From the IMG/VR virus record IMGVR_UViG_3300033144_003548: a stretch of DNA of 64,000 nucleotides. The stretch is one strand, 5' to 3'. Numbering within the stretch: position 1 is the stretch's first letter; every line of letters begins with the position of its first letter. This DNA comes from a virus. The translations under genes and the position numbers were made by a program. Under the pieces are notes generated by a model. The model did no database searches, was not told the origin of the DNA, and worked only from the letters and a program-made list of their open reading frames with translations. This document shows positions 7,476-44,655 of the stretch, in pieces.

Positions 7476-7755
7476 CAGGATGCACCTCGGTTATATGATT
7501 TGCCGTCTTGCTATGGAGTGTCATAGGAGAAAGTGTGACAACTGTATATTACGATTTCAATGTTTTACGGCGAAGTGGTTTCCGTACCCTTTTCCAAAAC
7601 ACTTAAAAACTAACGAGGAGTTTGAAGTCGAATTAACTGATGCGGTAAAATACTTAGAATATCACGACAATGGTGTGTGGTTAGTGTGGAAAAATAGCAG
7701 GGCAAAGCAAAAGAAGGGTGAATTTATAAAGGTATTTGGTGATGGGGAACTTTAA
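7444..7755 (+). CDS. Cys-module protein
   Basis: CHRRKCDNCILRFQCFTAK. Confidence 0.7.
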   Translation: MKYINLKIMDSRMHLGYMICRLAMECHRRKCDNCILRFQCFTAKWFPYPFPKHLKTNEEFEVELTDAVKYLEYHDNGVWLVWKNSRAKQKKGEFIKVFGDGEL

Positions 7756-8524
7756 AGAAGAGGTTCTAAACAACGTAGCAATAGGTGCAGGCAAGGTTGA
7801 ACAGAGGTTAGCTGAGAAAAAGCAGAAACTTCTTTATCTAGCCGTGTCTGGCTCTCACGCTTGGGGGCTGGAACGACCAGATAGCGACTTTGATTTGCGT
7901 GGTATATATCAAGACCCTACTGATAAGATATTGGATTTGCGTAAAGGTAGAGATACGATAGAGTTTACTGATGGCATATATGATGTGCAGTTATATGAAG
8001 TTGAGAAATTTTTTAGGCTGCTTTGCAACCACAATGGTAATATGGTTACGTTACTCCAACTTCCTATGTGTCCTTATATGGATACCGAGTACGTGCCTTG
8101 GAACACAATAGGAAATTTCTTTATTACAAAAAAACTGAGATTTTACTATCGAGGTTATGCCGAGTCGCAAAGAAAAAGAGCGTTGTCTCAGCGTGGCGGG
8201 AAAGCACTTATCTATACCTATCGAGAAATGTTTTCTGGACTATTCTTGATGAAGTATGGTTTTATGTGTTTCAACTTCAAACAGCTTTGGCAAGAAGCAG
8301 AGGAAAACGGGTGGTATAATGAGGGGTTGCTTTATAAATATTACGCTAACCCAAAACTCCCTGTGAGTGATGAGGGTTGGACTAAATTCTATGATGAGTG
8401 GGAGATATTGTCAGAAAAGTTAGATACTGAGGCAGAAAGATCCTCATTACCTGATAACTTTGATGGTTATGAGCTTTGTAACGCTTATCTCAGGCTACTG
8501 AGATTGAAGGGATTAAATTTATAA
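7736..8524 (+). CDS. Nucleotidyltransferase, pol-beta superfamily (RlaP/YcgL-like)
   Basis: SGSHAWGL..PDSDFDLRGIY, YEVEKFFRLLC..NGN. Confidence 0.8.
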   Translation: MVMGNFKEEVLNNVAIGAGKVEQRLAEKKQKLLYLAVSGSHAWGLERPDSDFDLRGIYQDPTDKILDLRKGRDTIEFTDGIYDVQLYEVEKFFRLLCNHNGNMVTLLQLPMCPYMDTEYVPWNTIGNFFITKKLRFYYRGYAESQRKRALSQRGGKALIYTYREMFSGLFLMKYGFMCFNFKQLWQEAEENGWYNEGLLYKYYANPKLPVSDEGWTKFYDEWEILSEKLDTEAERSSLPDNFDGYELCNAYLRLLRLKGLNL

Positions 8525-15452: not shown

Positions 15453-15953
15453 TTGGTAGATATGATAGTAATTGACCCAAATAATTTTAATTTTGAGGAA
15501 CTGGAAAAAGATGGAAAGATAGTCGCAGTATCGGGTTATTTTGATCCGCCCACACCTACTCATCTTATCTACTTTAGGGCAGCAAAGGAACTTGGGAAGT
15601 GGCTAGTCGTTATATTGAACACCGATGAACAATTATTAATGAAGCGAAAAGGGACTCCACTTGAAGGCAAGATAAGATATGAATGGTGGGACAGAGCATT
15701 TATCGTGAACGAATTTAAAACAGTCAATCTGGTTGTAAGGTCAATTGATGAGGGAAGAGGTATAGCAGAAACTATAAGAGCAATTAAACCCAACATCTTT
15801 GCGAAGGGTGGGGATAGAAACCCAAAAGATAATCCTATCCCCCAAGAAGAAATAGATGTTTGTAAGGAAGTAGGTTGCGAGATTGTGTATGGTGTGGGTG
15901 GTGACAAAGATAGTAAGACACATTCAAGTTCTTGGTATAATTGGGAAAGCTAA
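15453..15953 (+). CDS. Cytidylyltransferase-like protein (HIGH superfamily)
   Basis: VAVSGYFDP, AKELG..LVVILN.D, FAKGGDR, HSSSW. Confidence 0.8.
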   Translation: MVDMIVIDPNNFNFEELEKDGKIVAVSGYFDPPTPTHLIYFRAAKELGKWLVVILNTDEQLLMKRKGTPLEGKIRYEWWDRAFIVNEFKTVNLVVRSIDEGRGIAETIRAIKPNIFAKGGDRNPKDNPIPQEEIDVCKEVGCEIVYGVGGDKDSKTHSSSWYNWES

Positions 15954-17326
15954 TGGAAATAATTAGAAGACTGGCAAAAAAGTTTAATACAGCAGGTTAC
16001 GAACTTTTTGAAGTTGGTGGTCACGTTAGAGATTCTCTGATTGGCAGAGAATCTTATGATATTGACCTAACTACTAATGCCAGACCAAAGGTGATTAAAT
16101 CTTTGGTAAGGGGCTTTGGTAGCGTCTACGATGTTGGTGAGAAGTTTGGAACAATTGGTCTGATGGTAGATGAACAGCTAATTGAAATCACCACCTACAG
16201 AAAGGAAGTTTATGCAAACAATTCTCGCAAACCACAGGTAACCTTTGGCAATAATCTAATAGATGACCTATCTAGGAGAGATTTTACCATAAATGCTATT
16301 GCCCGTAACCCATTGACCGAGGGTATCGTTGATCCATTTGGTGGAATTAAAGACATCGAGGCAAGGACTATCAGGTGTGTTGGTAACGATGATGAGAGAT
16401 TTAATGAAGACCCTCTAAGAATGATGAGGGCAGTTAGATTTGCGTGTCAGCTAGGTTTCAGAATGGAAGTGAGAGTTAACCATCCAGAGAGGCTTCGCAT
16501 CATCTCCAATGAAAGAATCAGAGATGAGCTATCCAAAATATTGCTGTCTCTAAAACCAGGTTTTGGTATCAGGAGATTGTGCAGTATGAAGCTTATGGAT
16601 TATATTTTTCCAGAATTTATAAACCTGAAAAATATAGAGCAAGGCAAAAATCACATCAAAGATGCTTTCCATCACTCTCTAATGGTTCTGGATAAAGGTG
16701 CAAGAATTGACCACAAGGAATACAATCTTGAGTTCAGACTCGCTTGCCTACTGCACGACATAGCTAAACCAGAAACAAAGACTGAGGATGAAACTGGCGT
16801 TCACTTCTATGGTCATCATTTCGTTGGTTCTAAGAAAGCTAGAAAGGCTCTTAGGAGACTTAAATATGATAATGATACCATAGATAGAGTATGCCATTTA
16901 ATCAAGTATCATATGACCCCAATTATGTTACAGAAGGAACTTGTTGCAGGTGAGATACGTAAAAGAGTTATAATGAGGATGATTAGAAAAATCGGAGAGA
17001 GTAATATTTACTTGCTACTTGACTTGGTTAAGTGTGATATTCGTTCTTCAAAAAACTCAAGATACAAATTTATAAATGTTTTGACTACGATGGTTGATGA
17101 GTGTATGAAAGAGCAGCCAGAATCTCTCGTTTCACCATTAGACGGTGACGAGATTATGGAACTTTACAACCTAAGACCTTCCCGTGCCGTTGGTAAAATC
17201 AAAACCTACTTGACTAATCTTGTTGTAGATGGTAAAATAGATAAGGAAGATAAAGAGGCTGCTAAAGAAAAAGCTATGGAATATATTAAGACCCAACTAA
17301 TTGAGGAGATAATGAACGGTGAGTGA
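15941..17326 (+). CDS. cca: CCA-adding tRNA nucleotidyltransferase with HD domain
   Basis: VGGHVRDSL, DIDLTT, DLSRRDFTINA, EDPLRMMRAVRF, LLHDIAKP. Confidence 0.9.
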   Translation: MGKLMEIIRRLAKKFNTAGYELFEVGGHVRDSLIGRESYDIDLTTNARPKVIKSLVRGFGSVYDVGEKFGTIGLMVDEQLIEITTYRKEVYANNSRKPQVTFGNNLIDDLSRRDFTINAIARNPLTEGIVDPFGGIKDIEARTIRCVGNDDERFNEDPLRMMRAVRFACQLGFRMEVRVNHPERLRIISNERIRDELSKILLSLKPGFGIRRLCSMKLMDYIFPEFINLKNIEQGKNHIKDAFHHSLMVLDKGARIDHKEYNLEFRLACLLHDIAKPETKTEDETGVHFYGHHFVGSKKARKALRRLKYDNDTIDRVCHLIKYHMTPIMLQKELVAGEIRKRVIMRMIRKIGESNIYLLLDLVKCDIRSSKNSRYKFINVLTTMVDECMKEQPESLVSPLDGDEIMELYNLRPSRAVGKIKTYLTNLVVDGKIDKEDKEAAKEKAMEYIKTQLIEEIMNGE

Positions 17327-29928: not shown

Positions 29929-30005
29929 TACGGGCGGCAGGACTCGAACCTGCAAAACCTTGCTTCTAAGACAAGTACGTATGCCTTTAATTCCGTCACG
30001 CCCGC
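29929..30005 (-). tRNA. tRNA-Leu(TAG), short variable arm
   Basis: CTTGT-CTTAGAA-GCAAG. Confidence 0.85.
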
Positions 30006-30010
30006 TCTCG

Positions 30011-30089
30011 TGCCCTCAGCGAGATTTGAACTCGCATTCTCAGATCCATTACGGCTAAGAGTTTAGGAAACTCCCCCGACTATGAGGGC
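30011..30089 (-). tRNA. Atypical tRNA-Arg(CCT) lacking a canonical D-arm
   Basis: Acceptor GCCCTCA/TGAGGGC, GGAGT-TTCCTAA-ACTCT, T-arm GCGAG-TTCAAAT-CTCGC. Confidence 0.7.
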
Positions 30090-31669: not shown

Positions 31670-31915
31670 CTACCTAACTACAAGTGCTTCAAGCACCATA
31701 GATTTCTCGTCTGGTAATAAATGTAATTTAAGCTTACTTATACATTTATAAGGTTCTAGTTTAAAACAAGCCAAATCAAATCTGAAAGGTATAATCTCGG
31801 TTATGTAAGTACCACTATCAAACTCTTTGTGGATTCTCATCGTCATACACTCAAATCTACTTTCACAGTTATCACACGACTCGTGCAGTATTGGAAACCT
31901 AAAATTTACTTTCAT
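31670..31915 (-). CDS. Cys-module protein
   Basis: CDNCESRFECMTMR. Confidence 0.65.
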   Translation of the reverse strand: MKVNFRFPILHESCDNCESRFECMTMRIHKEFDSGTYITEIIPFRFDLACFKLEPYKCISKLKLHLLPDEKSMVLEALVVR

Positions 31916-31916
31916 A

Positions 31917-32009
31917 TGGTAGGCGTGGTAGGAATCGAACCTACACCTTGGGTATATCAGACCCTAAACCGCTTATAAGACGGTTGCACTGCCTTTGTGC
32001 TTCACGCCC
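31917..32009 (-). tRNA. tRNA-Ile with two tandem anticodon arms (TAT and GAT)
   Basis: ACCGT-CTTATAA-GCGGT, TT, AGGGT-CTGATAT-ACCCA, AGGT, T-arm, ACCA. Confidence 0.85.
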
Positions 32010-32230
32010 TTTCGTGTTCTCAAAGCATTTACGAACCCATAAATACCGATACACACACCGATAGAATTAACCACTATTATAGCTGGAAGTGCTTGTAGTA
32101 TACCATAAGTAAGGAATAAAATAGCTCCACCAAGCAATAATCCTTTTATAATTACCAGCCCCTTGAATGCCATAGCTCCGTAAATTAGAACACCAGCAAC
32201 CACACCAATAGCTTCTATTAGCCAATTCAT
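31973..32230 (-). CDS. Small membrane protein (YgjV-like)
   Basis: Three hydrophobic helices; YG.L..ALP.I.VN pattern. Confidence 0.55.
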   Translation of the reverse strand: MNWLIEAIGVVAGVLIYGAMAFKGLVIIKGLLLGGAILFLTYGILQALPAIIVVNSIGVCIGIYGFVNALRTRKGVKHKGSATVL

Positions 32231-34172: not shown

Positions 34173-34249
34173 TGGTAGGGACGACAGGATTTGAACCTGT
34201 AACCTTCGGTATATCAGACCGATGCTCAGCCAGATTGAGCTACGTCCCC
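34173..34249 (-). tRNA. tRNA-Ile(GAT)
   Basis: TCGGT-CTGATAT-ACCGA; CCA. Confidence 0.9.
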
Positions 34250-38234: not shown

Positions 38235-40184
38235 TTAAACTAAGCCATCTTTAATCCTTTGAATTCGTGGTAAACACCAACGTTCCCTCCATTCTTCTAC
38301 TATTATATCAAATTCTTTATAGTTTGTCAAGTCCAATGTATCGGTCTCTTCTCTCAGGAACTCTCTGTAGTTCTTGGCAAGAGGAATGACGTAAACTCCT
38401 CTAAAGTTTTCGATACTTTGAACCTTCCAATACTTGGAAAGCTTTTGATACCCCTTCACCACTCCATACTTTTCTTTTATTGAACCATCTTCGTTATAGT
38501 AAATTTCGGAGTGCTTACCTTTGGTTTTCTTGAAATCCTCACGCATCTGCTGTTTAACTTCGAGTGGAACAAGAACAGAGGAATAACCTTTAGATGTACC
38601 TAGATAAATAAATCCATCTAATCTATTGTAGAGACTAGATTTACCGTAAAGAGAAGTTACAGTCATCATCGCTAACCGATGACCATATTTGTTTTCAAAA
38701 TAATCTTGAACCTCTTTACTTTTTGTGGATAGAGCACATAACTTACCTGCTAAATAATTACCAAATTCTGGTGTTGATATACAATGCTGCACATTCATCA
38801 GGTAATTGATTCTCTTGCCCTTCCACTTGTTTTGGTGTGTCCAACCTATAAATTTATCTCTGATGGGAATGGTCAAATCGCTAGCCAGCCCCACAATTCC
38901 AATAATAAATCCAGTTTCACGATCCCGAACTAAGTAATGAATCCTTCTACCAACTTCACCACTATTTCCGCACCAAACAGGTTTTCCATTTCTCCTCACC
39001 ATAATAATCTGATTGGGTACTGTTACGCAATATATCTTACCATCATAGTCTACCCAACTTCTTTTATCTTTATGTGAGTTAGGATTATATGTATTATAGG
39101 TAGGATTAAAAGTAACTATATACGCTTTATTTCCAACGCTATTGATATAGCTTCGTAATTTGGTATTATAACCAAGTTTAAGACATATTTCACTAATGTC
39201 ATCTGCTAATCTTTTAGATATAGTACTATACGTTCTCTCTCTACTACCATCATTCCTATCTCTATTACATCCATCTCCCAACATAGCAAAATCTAACAAT
39301 AGTCTTAATTGCTTTTTAGGTAATCCCTTTATACAGGTAGGAATGTACTTACTATCTCTTTTTCCTAGCTTATTAAAATAAGCTGCCCAAACTTTGTTAC
39401 CCAAAACGATTCTTCTACTCTTCGTAGACTTCTTCTGTAACGAATACTTAATACCAGCTTTATCTAGCACATCTAAAAATGTATCTAACTTATCACCAGT
39501 ATTTTGTGTAAAACAAACAGAATACTTTGTAGTATGACCTTCAGCCAGATAGAAACCAAGTATTGATACGAAGGTGTTAATATCTAATACGACATCATCA
39601 TAATGTTTACCTTTTGGGATATGATCAACTTTTGGTAGAGTAAAATAATCTATATGATTACCACACCAGTCAAATTTAGAAGTGTATCTAACACATCTAG
39701 TAGACTCATCAGCCCTAATCAAGTTAAAATCTAAATGCTTATCCCTACTTATAAATAAATTATGATTCGGAGTAACTAACAAATCTATGCTGCCACTTTG
39801 TTTAAACATCTTACCACTATAGTGCTCATTGACATAGTGTGTTGGTAGTTGATACTCCAGCTTATTAGTCTCTCTATTAAGCGTTGCCACCTTAACACTT
39901 GGTATTAAATCGCAAAATCGCATCCAACCAAGCTCAGTTAAAATGTCTGTTTCCTCGTCATAACAAAGGGGTGCAGATGAGACGGTAACACGACCGTACC
40001 ACCATAAATCATTCAAATCTTTAGTTTCACAAAACTCTATATATGGTTGAATCTTCTCTACATCAGGAACAATCGCTTGAACAGCTTCCCACTTCGGTCT
40101 AATTTGTCCCAAACGTTTTGCATTCTTATCAATGTACTGCTGCCTAGCCTCAAGCAGTCTTTCTCTCAACTCTTCCTTATCCAA
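38235..40184 (-). CDS. DUF4338/DruA-like protein with an intein
   Basis: GRRIHYLVRD, RDKFIGWT, YLAGKL, TSLYGKSSLYNRL. Confidence 0.75.
   Translation of the reverse strand: MDKEELRERLLEARQQYIDKNAKRLGQIRPKWEAVQAIVPDVEKIQPYIEFCETKDLNDLWWYGRVTVSSAPLCYDEETDILTELGWMRFCDLIPSVKVATLNRETNKLEYQLPTHYVNEHYSGKMFKQSGSIDLLVTPNHNLFISRDKHLDFNLIRADESTRCVRYTSKFDWCGNHIDYFTLPKVDHIPKGKHYDDVVLDINTFVSILGFYLAEGHTTKYSVCFTQNTGDKLDTFLDVLDKAGIKYSLQKKSTKSRRIVLGNKVWAAYFNKLGKRDSKYIPTCIKGLPKKQLRLLLDFAMLGDGCNRDRNDGSRERTYSTISKRLADDISEICLKLGYNTKLRSYINSVGNKAYIVTFNPTYNTYNPNSHKDKRSWVDYDGKIYCVTVPNQIIMVRRNGKPVWCGNSGEVGRRIHYLVRDRETGFIIGIVGLASDLTIPIRDKFIGWTHQNKWKGKRINYLMNVQHCISTPEFGNYLAGKLCALSTKSKEVQDYFENKYGHRLAMMTVTSLYGKSSLYNRLDGFIYLGTSKGYSSVLVPLEVKQQMREDFKKTKGKHSEIYYNEDGSIKEKYGVVKGYQKLSKYWKVQSIENFRGVYVIPLAKNYREFLREETDTLDLTNYKEFDIIVEEWRERWCLPRIQRIKDGLV
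38964..39965 (-). mobile_element. Intein (334 aa) with LAGLIDADG endonuclease
   Basis: CYDEETDILT..GW, VTPNH, LGFYLAEG, MLGDG, IYCVTV...WCGN followed by Ser. Confidence 0.9.
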
Positions 40185-43338: not shown

Positions 43339-44655
43339 TTAAAAACCACCTGTTTCGTAAGCTCTAATGTAATTCAAGACGGCTTCTGACCAACCATCAA
43401 TGTGAGTCCAGTTGCCGTAACCTACACCTCTCTGGTAAGAAGCAACATTTATCATATAACCCCTACCATTTGGTTTGCCAACTCTATCACTTGACTGCTC
43501 ATCAGTTATAACAAGTAGTCGGTCATAATTTGTGTTATTAACTGCGTTAACAGCACCACCTAGAGAAGTTCCGCCGTGAGGCTGAGAATTAATTATAGCA
43601 TCCCTCAATGCAAATCCGTGCCTTGCAGCAACTCTCTTTGCATTATTTGAGAATGTCCATATCTCAGCATCATCTGACATTTCTCTAGCCAGTATTGCCA
43701 GACCACAAGCAGCATCCATCGCAGTTAACTCTGACTTACCAGACAACCTTGAACCCATACTGCCAGACACATCCACCAACACCGTAGTTTTACCATCCAA
43801 CTTACCCTGACTTGCAACAGCCTTGAACATAGCCTTTTCTAGTTCAGTTTCCCACTGGGGTGCGTGGCTAGCTGCTGTAATAAATCTAAATGGTAAAACT
43901 CTGTCTACCTTCATATGGTCTAGAGCATCCTTCACCAACACCTCATCGACACCAGATTGGTGCATATTCCTCAAGTTACGAAGCAGAGCCATAGCTCCAA
44001 GCTTCCCATCTTTGATTAAACGCTCAAAAGTATCCTTCTTATCCTTACCAGCACTTAAATTAACTTCCCAAGTATCAGGTGCTGCCAAAGTCCCATCAAC
44101 CAATTGCTTCCAAGTATCCACCTGTTCTTTGCTTGTTGGTTTTGGGTGAGTAAGGAACAAAACATCTCTCAACTTAACTTCAGCATCTCTATTGTACTTG
44201 GCAAGCTCGTATTCATCAAACTTAGGAAAAGCTTCTGCCAAACCCTTCTTAACTTGTGCTGACAAGGGTTGCCTGCCGTCCTTCCAGTAAATCTTCAAAA
44301 ACTCGGCAGGCTCATCTGCACGTTGCATTATTCTTGCCAAAGTTTCCTTTACCAAGTGCTTGTGAGTATTGTGCTTAGCCATTTCACGCACAATTAGCAA
44401 AGGAACGTGACGCAGCTTCATTTGCTCCCTAGCTTCGATAGCTATCTCAGCCACCTTCTCTGGTTTTACTTTAGGCACAAGATCAGCTATTCTTTGAGCA
44501 ATATCCTTTCCACTCTCGTAGAAAGTGTTCTCCCAAAGCAAGCAAGCCATAACTGACCTTCTTAGCTCCAGCTCAGGACTTATCCTTCTTGCTGGACCTC
44601 CCTCGTGTGTGTAGATAGGAACTCTTGTTCTTGTTGCCGTGTTTGTTCTCACCAT
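43339..44655 (-). CDS. Ro60/Rsr TROVE-domain RNA-binding protein with vWA domain
   Basis: THEGG, LLWENTFYESG, DTWEV.LS, MALLRNLRN, DVSGSM (MIDAS), ITDEQ. Confidence 0.92.
   Translation of the reverse strand: MVRTNTATRTRVPIYTHEGGPARRISPELELRRSVMACLLWENTFYESGKDIAQRIADLVPKVKPEKVAEIAIEAREQMKLRHVPLLIVREMAKHNTHKHLVKETLARIMQRADEPAEFLKIYWKDGRQPLSAQVKKGLAEAFPKFDEYELAKYNRDAEVKLRDVLFLTHPKPTSKEQVDTWKQLVDGTLAAPDTWEVNLSAGKDKKDTFERLIKDGKLGAMALLRNLRNMHQSGVDEVLVKDALDHMKVDRVLPFRFITAASHAPQWETELEKAMFKAVASQGKLDGKTTVLVDVSGSMGSRLSGKSELTAMDAACGLAILAREMSDDAEIWTFSNNAKRVAARHGFALRDAIINSQPHGGTSLGGAVNAVNNTNYDRLLVITDEQSSDRVGKPNGRGYMINVASYQRGVGYGNWTHIDGWSEAVLNYIRAYETGGF

What the first reader, a model, noticed from the sequence alone, without database searches (positions are those of the whole stretch)
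31917..32009. A tRNA-Ile with two anticodon arms, UAU and GAU
Seen: GGGCGUG-AA-D arm-A-[ACCGU CUUAUAA GCGGU]-UU-[AGGGU CUGAUAU ACCCA]-AGGU-T arm-CACGCCU-ACCA. The second hairpin has a 7-nt loop identical to that of the normal tRNA-Ile(GAT) at 34173-34249 and is followed by the same AGGU. Both anticodons specify Ile. Known: tRNA-Ile has no long variable arm, bacteria normally read AUA with lysidine-modified CAU, and IleRS reads the anticodon. Inference: the GAU arm could secure charging while UAU decodes AUA without TilS, or the molecule switches conformers, or one arm is a nuclease decoy. A recombination chimera is the null model.
Basis: partly seen in the sequence, partly recalled or inferred. 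Interest (0 to 1): 0.85.

Follow-up and report, generated by a model that had tools for sequence, protein, structure and literature searches.

The report
Phage isoleucine tRNA with GAU-displaying extra arm
This phage gene is a real 93-base tRNA for the isoleucine codon AUA whose extra hairpin displays GAU, the ordinary isoleucine anticodon; the design recurs in hundreds of phage contigs, I found no paper on it, and the hairpin may be how the host charging enzyme accepts a tRNA it would otherwise load poorly.

Summary
Window 32009..31917 (-) is a 93-nt tRNA (ARAGORN Ile-UAU; Rfam 57.5 bits). It has a UAU arm, then a second hairpin whose 7-nt loop CUGAUAU and following AGGU match the resident tRNA-Ile(GAU). 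One correction: the second stem has 4 bp, not 5.

It is not a chimera.
- In an IMG/VR scan that left the extra arm unconstrained, 59 of 64 unique long tRNA(UAU) genes have GAU centred in a 7-nt loop. Class II Leu/Ser/Tyr controls gave 0 of 119.
- In the reverse scan, with the anticodon left free, all 72 long tRNAs carrying the arm have UAU.
- The stem covaries (41 distinct 4-bp stems among 128 sequences) and A73 is near-invariant.
- The arm is followed by 5-6 unpaired bases, against 1-3 in true class II tRNAs.

A codon-column test on four proteins of this phage reads AUA as Ile, not Leu (+45.8 nats).

Best reading (about 50%): the arm mimics the tRNA-Ile(GAU) anticodon so that IleRS charges a UAU tRNA. 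This is untested, and short UAU tRNAs are equally common in phages. Decoding by both arms is unlikely, because most family loops lack U33 and a purine at position 37.

This scan has found the family before on other DNA (33 earlier notes). I found no publication describing it.

The parts
31917..32009 (-). whole 93-nt tRNA gene, tRNA-Ile(UAU) with extra GAU arm, CCA encoded
   Evidence: ARAGORN; Rfam RF00005 57.5 bits; five-arm MFE fold
32003..32009 (-). acceptor stem 5' strand GGGCGUG (G1.U72 wobble, C4-G69)
   Evidence: sequence; fold
31986..32000 (-). D arm GCAC-AAAGGCA-GUGC (normal size, with GG)
   Evidence: compensatory change to GCUC/GAGC in the relative L015
31968..31984 (-). first hairpin (H1): ACCGU-CUUAUAA-GCGGU, anticodon UAU at 31977..31975; the decoding arm
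   Evidence: stem covaries in the family; L015 has GCGGU/GCCGU
31950..31964 (-). second hairpin (H2): GGGU-CUGAUAU-ACCC, GAU at 31958..31956; mimic of the tRNA-Ile(GAU) anticodon loop
   Evidence: family statistics
31945..31949 (-). 5-nt linker A-AGGU between H2 and the T stem, the length and sequence of a class I variable loop
   Evidence: linker is 5-6 nt in 124 of 128 family members against 1-3 nt in Ser/Leu/Tyr controls
31928..31944 (-). T arm GUAGG-UUCGAUU-CCUAC
31917..31927 (-). acceptor 3' strand CACGCCU, discriminator A73 (31920), CCA (31919..31917)
   Evidence: A73 in 126 of 127 family members
34173..34249 (-). resident normal tRNA-Ile(GAU), whose loop CUGAUAU and following AGGU are copied in H2

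Best explanation
This is a functional phage tRNA that reads AUA as isoleucine through its UAU arm (H1). The phage uses AUA heavily, at 25 per 1000 codons.

The second hairpin (H2) is not a class II variable arm and not a relic. Selection keeps it as a short 4-bp stem presenting G-A-U at the centre of a 7-nt loop, that is, a copy of the tRNA-Ile(GAU) anticodon.

The most likely job is to give the host isoleucyl-tRNA synthetase (IleRS) the GAU it normally reads. That would compensate for U34 in the real anticodon, which ordinary bacterial IleRS recognises poorly. The phage could then supply an AUA decoder that needs neither lysidine nor TilS.

Shown here: the gene, its fold, the recurrence of the design, the conserved GAU, the covarying stem, the exclusive tie to UAU, the link to A73, and AUA behaving as Ile.
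Inferred: How the arm docks is unknown. It could lie alongside H1, or it could take the anticodon-arm position while H1 is looped out.
For: - Real tRNA.
- Recurrence when the arm was left unconstrained: 59 of 64 unique long tRNA(UAU) genes have a centred GAU. The next most frequent centred triplet occurs 10 times, and class II controls give 0 of 119.
- Reverse scan with the anticodon free: 72 of 72 long tRNAs carrying a CAGAUUA arm have UAU.
- Selection acts on the loop rather than the stem: stem pairs 1-3 are paired in 128 of 128 sequences, with 41 distinct 4-bp stems.
- Ile-type discriminator A73 in 126 of 127. In prokaryote MAGs the GAU arm goes with A73 (8 of 9), while long UAU tRNAs without the arm have G73 or U73 (6 of 7).
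- The 3' linker of 5-6 nt differs from Ser/Leu/Tyr variable arms, which have 1-3 nt.
- AUA is used as Ile in this phage. Across 46 AUA columns in PolA, the CCA enzyme, RecA and DnaB, the log-likelihoods are I -95.7, V -113.7 and L -141.4. The column profile equals that of AUU/AUC. The near-invariant PolA Ile435 is encoded by AUA.
- Long and short UAU tRNAs almost never share a locus: 0 long forms in 119 short-form loci, and one short form among the long-form loci.
- Published basis: E. coli IleRS charges tRNA-Ile2(UAU) 360-fold worse than the LAU form, and a residue in the IleRS C-terminal region sets this (PMC3575796).
Against:
- Short class I tRNA-Ile(UAU) genes are at least as common in viral contigs (107 of 119 loci in a row-capped scan). 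The arm is therefore not generally required.
- Most family loops (YAGAUUA) lack A37 and so lack the t6A37 that E. coli IleRS uses as a determinant. The mimic is imperfect outside the window's subgroup.
- I could not model whether an arm at this position can reach the IleRS anticodon-binding region.
- The body is no more similar to the resident tRNA-Ile(GAU) than to other tRNAs.
- Later checks of earlier scan notes put this bold reading at only 13-42 in 100.
Confidence: 0.5

Rival explanations
1. The GAU hairpin is read by some factor other than IleRS. Candidates are a modification enzyme acting on the UAU anticodon, a phage protein, or a host tRNA-Ile-specific nuclease for which the arm acts as a decoy or shield.
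For: The loop is conserved but its reader is unknown. Most loops have A rather than U at position 2 and U rather than A at position 6, so they are not perfect IleRS substrates. The window also encodes RNA-handling proteins: a CCA-adding enzyme, a Ro60/TROVE protein and RlaP.
Against: The arm occurs only on UAU tRNAs (72 of 72) and goes with A73. The obvious factor shared by UAU and GAU anticodons is IleRS. A general decoy could sit on any tRNA or stand alone. I know of no tRNA-Ile(GAU)-specific nuclease (from memory).
Confidence: 0.2
2. The tRNA has two working anticodon arms. The molecule switches between conformers, so that either UAU reads AUA or GAU reads AUC/AUU, or so that the GAU conformer is the form that gets charged.
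For: In the window's subgroup the H2 loop is a perfect anticodon loop, YUGAUAN with U33 and A37, in 28 unique members. H2 is followed by a class-I-like 5-nt linker, AGGU in the window, exactly as an anticodon arm would be.
Against: H2 has only 4 bp and the fifth position is always a mismatch. Across the family, 54 of 59 have A at the U33 position and 41 of 59 have U at position 37. The phage keeps a separate normal tRNA-Ile(GAU). The energy model predicts a single five-arm fold.
Confidence: 0.07
3. It is a class II-like tRNA charged by LeuRS or another anticodon-blind synthetase, so that AUA is recoded. Nematode nev-tRNA-Ile(UAU) is charged with leucine in this way.
For: It has a long extra arm and A73, which is also the LeuRS discriminator. 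The precedent is PMC3333845.
Against: The codon-column test reads AUA as Ile over Leu by 45.8 nats, with a bootstrap fraction of 0.004. The 3' linker of 5-6 nt is unlike Leu, which has 2 nt. The body is not Leu-like. Conservation of GAU would be left unexplained.
Confidence: 0.05
4. The extra arm is a neutral relic of an anticodon-arm duplication or insertion and has no present function.
For: The layout looks like two anticodon arms in tandem. Short UAU tRNAs work without the arm in many phages.
Against: A relic would not keep G-A-U invariant while its stem turns over through 41 different 4-bp versions. It would also not stay tied to UAU and A73 across bodies as different as the normal-D-arm and compact-D-arm types.
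Confidence: 0.05
5. The feature is an assembly or recombination chimera, or a pseudogene unique to this contig.
For: Read support could not be checked.
Against: The related phages L015 and L010 carry the same gene with compensatory stem changes. More than 150 further examples exist.
Confidence: 0.01

Closest known systems
TilS-independent bacterial tRNA-Ile2(UAU) of Mycoplasma mobile (Taniguchi et al. 2013, PMC3575796)
   Same: A UAU anticodon in a YUUAUAA loop reads AUA without lysidine. Both have A73 and Ile identity. Both face the same problem, that ordinary IleRS reads U34 poorly.
   Different: The M. mobile tRNA is an ordinary class I tRNA, and the solution lies in the enzyme (Arg865). 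Here the tRNA itself carries a second hairpin with GAU. A phage cannot change the host enzyme.
nev-tRNA-Ile(UAU) of nematodes (Hamashima et al. 2012, PMC3333845)
   Same: A UAU anticodon combined with a long extra arm.
   Different: nev-tRNAs derive from tRNA-Leu, have a true class II arm and are charged with Leu. Here the body is not Leu-like, the arm has a 5-6 nt 3' linker and a GAU loop, and AUA reads as Ile.
allo-tRNA(UAU), 8/4 type (Mukai et al. 2017, PMC5389517)
   Same: Bacterial or phage tRNA-like genes with UAU and a long arm. The compact members of this family share a small D-arm and a long anticodon stem.
   Different: allo-tRNAs have an 8/4 or 9/3 acceptor/T branch and G73 or U73 (Ser-type). 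This tRNA is 7/5 with A73. That paper does not mention a GAU loop. In my genome scan the long UAU tRNAs without a GAU arm are the ones with G73.
Class II tRNAs (Leu, Ser, Tyr) with long variable arms
   Same: An extra stem-loop lies between the anticodon arm and the T arm.
   Different: Class II arms are followed by 1-3 unpaired bases and have no conserved loop triplet (0 of 119 with centred GAU). Here there are 5-6 unpaired bases and an invariant GAU.
Anticodon-arm mimics bound by synthetases, such as the E. coli thrS mRNA operator bound by ThrRS (from memory, not checked here)
   Same: A hairpin that copies a cognate anticodon loop is read by the synthetase's anticodon-binding domain.
   Different: Those mimics sit in mRNAs and regulate translation. 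Here the mimic would sit in cis on a tRNA and serve charging.

Membership tests
tRNA (Rfam RF00005) | Cloverleaf sequence and structure scoring above the curated gathering score | tested here: met
   57.5 bits against 29, full model 1-71; ARAGORN
   CUUAUAA in the window; family H1 loops
   GGGU-CUGAUAU-ACCC; 59 of 64 in the family
   A-AGGU and A73 in the window; 124 of 128 and 126 of 127 in the family
Class II tRNA (Leu/Ser/Tyr type) | Long variable arm followed by 1-3 unpaired bases; G73 for Ser | tested here: not met
   5-nt linker and A73 in the window; controls Ser 1 nt, Leu 2 nt, Tyr 3 nt
allo-tRNA (Mukai 2017) | 8/4 or 9/3 acceptor/T branch and G73 or U73 | tested here: not met
   7-bp acceptor, 5-bp T stem and A73; definition from PMC5389517
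nev-tRNA-like recoding tRNA | tRNA-Leu-derived body; the codon is read as Leu | tested here: not met
   Nearest bodies are class I tRNAs; AUA columns fit Ile over Leu by 45.8 nats. Charging itself was not tested.
tRNA-Ile isoacceptor (IleRS substrate) | A73, A35, U36, A37, A38 and C29-G41, C4-G69 (E. coli identity set, from memory of Nureki et al. 1994) | tested here: inconclusive
   The window has A73, C4-G69, C29-G41 and loop UAUAA. However, 4-69 and 29-41 vary across the family. Aminoacylation cannot be tested with these tools.
tRNA-Ile isoacceptor (IleRS substrate) | Charged with isoleucine by IleRS | not testable with these tools
   Only indirect evidence: AUA is used as Ile in this phage

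The most novel reading that the evidence does not exclude
The extra hairpin is a cis-acting anticodon mimic. IleRS reads the GAU on the side arm instead of, or together with, the wobble-defective UAU anticodon, so the tRNA's identity and its decoding sit on two different loops. That would be a new kind of tRNA identity element. Phages would use it to bring an AUA decoder into hosts whose IleRS rejects U34. In the window's subgroup, which has a perfect YUGAUAN loop, the two arms may even exchange the anticodon-arm position.
Probability: 0.45. Interest if true: 0.85.

Novelty: new variant of a known kind. Interest (0 to 1): 0.74.

Why it matters
tRNA identity rules say that IleRS reads the anticodon itself. 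A tRNA that carries a spare copy of the cognate anticodon on a side arm would separate who charges it from what it reads. That is of interest for tRNA biology, for how AT-rich phages solve AUA decoding without TilS, and for engineering orthogonal or suppressor tRNAs for anticodon-reading synthetases.

The family is large, standard annotation misses it or calls it without comment, and it is absent from the papers I could search. It is unannotated in two cultured cyanophages, Synechococcus phages S-SRM01 and S-SKS1. This makes it directly testable at the bench.

Tried and rejected
- Megablast and blastn of the locus and of the tRNA against 50,697 phage records gave no match. The L101 type also gave none. 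Only the compact L097 type hit cultured phages.
- No whole genome is held for this window.
- The search for related loci with the neighbouring metallophosphoesterase in metagenomes returned 80 loci, none with a UAU tRNA. The gene is widespread and synteny is not kept.
- My first pattern scan used a spacing that excluded the window's own geometry. I corrected this.
- I tested whether the gene arose from the resident tRNA-Ile(GAU). The body is no closer to it than to other tRNAs, except in L001 and L003.
- I tested whether G1.U72 is a family mark. It is enriched (51% against 15%) but also high in several other phage isoacceptors, so I dropped it.
- I looked for a general rule that extra arms mimic the anticodon. 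Long tRNA-Asn, Thr and Gln in the same loci have GAAA-type or other loops and no mimic.
- I rejected excision of one arm as an intron. There is no group I intron or bulge-helix-bulge motif, and family-wide H2 lacks decoding features.
- The DnaB and RecA searches returned few distant homologues, so they add little to the codon test.

Full report
**What is in the window.** The minus strand of 31917-32009 encodes a 93-nt tRNA. ARAGORN calls it tRNA-Ile(tat). Rfam's tRNA model gives 57.5 bits against a threshold of 29, with the second hairpin as a 20-nt insertion in the variable region. The minimum-free-energy fold is a five-arm cloverleaf, laid out as follows:
- a 7-bp acceptor stem with G1.U72;
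- a normal D arm;
- hairpin H1, ACCGU-CUUAUAA-GCGGU, with the anticodon UAU;
- two or three linker bases;
- hairpin H2, GGGU-CUGAUAU-ACCC;
- a five-base linker, A-AGGU;
- the T arm, then A73 and an encoded CCA.

The H2 loop is identical to the anticodon loop of the ordinary tRNA-Ile(GAU) at 34249..34173, and both are followed by AGGU. H2 has four base pairs, and the outer A/A is a mismatch.

**Context.** The window is part of a roughly 140-kb phage genome with no close cultured relative. It carries 28-30 tRNA genes interleaved with small ORFs. It also encodes a CCA-adding enzyme, a Ro60/TROVE protein, RlaP, PolA, DnaB and RecA. AUA makes up 24.7 per 1000 codons, or 37% of the Ile-box codons. 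I saw no TilS among the 20 largest ORFs of the window. The rest of the genome was not available.

**It is a family, not a chimera.** A scan of IMG/VR for both loops found eight more 90-96-nt tRNA(UAU) genes on contigs of up to 480 kb. Two of them, L015 and L010, come from phages of the window's own clade, judged by PolA contig sizes. L015 differs from the window by compensatory changes in the D stem and in H1.

I then scanned with only the UAU loop and the T arm fixed and a long gap between them, so the extra arm was unconstrained. Of 64 unique long tRNA(UAU) genes, 59 have GAU centred in a 7-nt loop closed by at least 3 bp. The next most frequent centred triplet occurs 10 times. None of 119 Leu/Ser/Tyr variable arms from the same loci has a centred GAU.

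The reverse scan fixed the commonest arm loop (CAGAUUA) and the T arm and left the anticodon free. In 85 new loci, every one of the 72 long tRNAs carrying the arm has UAU.

Across 128 unique members, the three loop-proximal H2 pairs are always paired and the fourth is paired in 114. There are 41 different 4-bp stems, and the fifth position is unpaired. Selection therefore keeps a short stem of any sequence that presents G-A-U.

**Two loop types.** Most members have YAGAUUA, with A where an anticodon loop has U33 and U where it has purine 37. The window belongs to a minority type with YUGAUAN, a perfect anticodon loop. A dedicated scan raised this type to 28 unique members on large phage contigs. 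In 25 of them the stem has 4 bp, and the position beyond the stem is always a mismatch, mostly A.G or A.A.

**Not a class II arm.** H2 is followed by 5-6 unpaired bases in 124 of 128 members. The variable arms of Ser, Leu and Tyr tRNAs from the same loci are followed by 1, 2 and 3 bases respectively. The layout is a hairpin plus a class I variable loop. The discriminator is A in 126 of 127.

In prokaryote genomes and MAGs, 9 of 16 long UAU tRNAs have the GAU arm. Most of these lie in arrays of 14-34 tRNAs that look like phage contigs binned into MAGs, and 8 of the 9 have A73. The seven without the arm have G73, U73 or (one) A73 and look like allo-tRNAs or Ser/Leu derivatives. The 8/4 allo-tRNA(UAU) of Mukai et al. 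and the Leu-charged nev-tRNA-Ile(UAU) of nematodes are thus the nearest published objects. This tRNA fails their defining features.

**Which amino acid.** I aligned four conserved proteins of this phage (PolA, CCA enzyme, RecA, DnaB) with distant homologues. I then asked which residue the homologues carry where the phage has a given codon.
- The 46 AUA columns give I 0.27, V 0.17, L 0.16.
- This matches the 107 AUU/AUC columns (I 0.28, V 0.19, L 0.17).
- It differs from the 168 Leu-codon columns (L 0.38, I 0.15).
- Summed log-likelihoods for AUA are I -95.7, V -113.7 and L -141.4. The I-over-L margin has a bootstrap fraction of 0.004.
- Controls behave as expected: ATT and ATC read as I; CTA, CTT and TTG as L; GTT and GTA as V. 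TTA and ATG are poorly resolved.
- The near-invariant Ile435 of PolA, homologous to the Ile of the DYSQIELR motif, is encoded by AUA.

This argues against leucine recoding. It does not prove who charges the phage tRNA, because host tRNAs also read AUA.

**Mechanism.** UAU and GAU anticodons share one obvious reader, IleRS. Published kinetics show that E. coli IleRS charges tRNA-Ile2 with UAU 360-fold worse than with LAU. A single residue in the enzyme's C-terminal region sets this, and Mycoplasma mobile solved the problem by changing the enzyme (PMC3575796). A phage cannot change the host enzyme. A CAU gene would depend on host TilS, and from general knowledge an unmodified CAU tRNA is charged with Met.

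A UAU tRNA that also presents GAU is therefore a sensible solution, and I put this reading at about one in two. How the arm is presented is open. The long 3' linker would allow H2 to lie alongside H1. Alternatively H2 could take the anticodon-arm position with H1 looped out at the 26/27 junction. From memory, archaeal LeuRS, a homologue of IleRS, reads the tip of the variable arm with its C-terminal domain. An arm in this region may therefore be within reach of a class Ia enzyme.

**What weakens the reading.**
- Short class I tRNA-Ile(UAU) genes are at least as common in viral contigs (107 of 119 loci in a capped scan). They almost never share a locus with the long form. The two forms look like alternative AUA decoders, and the arm is not universally needed. 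A link to host IleRS type would explain this, but I could not test it.
- Most loops lack A37, so they lack the t6A determinant.
- I could obtain no RNA or read data.
- Earlier notes of this scan reached the same idea, and later checks priced it at 13-42 in 100.

**Rivals.** These are: another GAU-binding factor; true dual decoding or arm switching, which is conceivable only for the window's perfect-loop subgroup; LeuRS charging; a functionless relic; and an artefact. Their odds are given in the Rival explanations section.

**Novelty.** Four full-text searches found no description of a GAU-bearing extra arm on tRNA-Ile(UAU). The scan itself has met the family at least 33 times on other DNA, so this window is a further member, of the less common perfect-loop type.
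- the reciprocal specificity test;
- the linker-length contrast with class II tRNAs;
- the link between the GAU arm and A73;
- the codon-column evidence for Ile in this phage;
- the finding that short forms are equally common;
- two cultured cyanophages carrying an unannotated compact member, S-SRM01 (MW015081, 32947-33027) and S-SKS1 (HQ633071, 178515-178593).

Noticed in passing
window 30011-30089 (-) and 29929-30005 (-): Two further tRNA-like genes are found only by Rfam (35.3 and 52.3 bits) and not by ARAGORN. Both have irregular D and anticodon regions. The second has loop CUUAGAA (anticodon UAG, Leu) but only a short variable loop.
   Followed up: partly
window 31973-32230 (-) and 31670-31915 (-): An 85-aa ORF runs 36 nt into the tRNA, and its TAA stop is tRNA bases 35-37 inside the UAU loop. 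The next ORF's ATG lies one base after the CCA. The packing is very tight, and whether the overlap is real is unknown.
   Followed up: no
L001 6494-6580, L003 2259-2346, L007 1455-1541, L020 1175-1258, L085 4425-4510: These are long (84-88 nt) tRNA-Asn(GUU) genes with a small extra arm in large phage tRNA arrays. The arm loops are GAAA-like and do not mimic the anticodon.
   Followed up: partly
L001 13138-13214, L006 5166-5243: tRNA genes with anticodon UUA (would read the UAA stop) occur on large phage contigs, hinting at stop-codon recoding there.
   Followed up: no
Synechococcus phage S-SRM01 MW015081 32947-33027; S-SKS1 HQ633071 178515-178593: Compact-D-arm members of the GAU-arm family are present but unannotated in two cultured cyanophage genomes.
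   Followed up: partly
L452-L570 (viral contigs): Ordinary short tRNA-Ile(UAU) genes are also abundant in phages (107 of 119 loci). They do not share a locus with the long form.
   Followed up: yes
family-wide: G1.U72 wobble occurs in 51% of long and 34% of short tRNA(UAU) against 15% of other phage tRNAs. It is also frequent in tRNAs with anticodons UUC, CAA and UAA, so it is not specific to this family.
   Followed up: yes
L192 6001-6085: An 85-nt tRNA with a CAU anticodon has an extra arm CGC-GAUU-GCG, on a contig binned to Methanosarcinales. It may be a CAU-anticodon counterpart of the GAU-arm design.
   Followed up: no
window 38235-40184 (-): A 649-aa protein has a DruA-like C-terminal region (Druantia defence family) and a LAGLIDADG domain, possibly an intein or a homing endonuclease fusion.
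   Followed up: no
window 43339-44655 (-), 7736-8524 (+), 15941-17326 (+): A Ro60/TROVE-vWA protein, an RlaP nucleotidyltransferase and a CCA-adding enzyme with an HD domain together form an RNA repair and quality-control set next to the tRNA array.
   Followed up: partly
window-wide codon test: TTA columns fit Ile and Leu about equally (n = 25). This is probably noise in a small sample.
   Followed up: no
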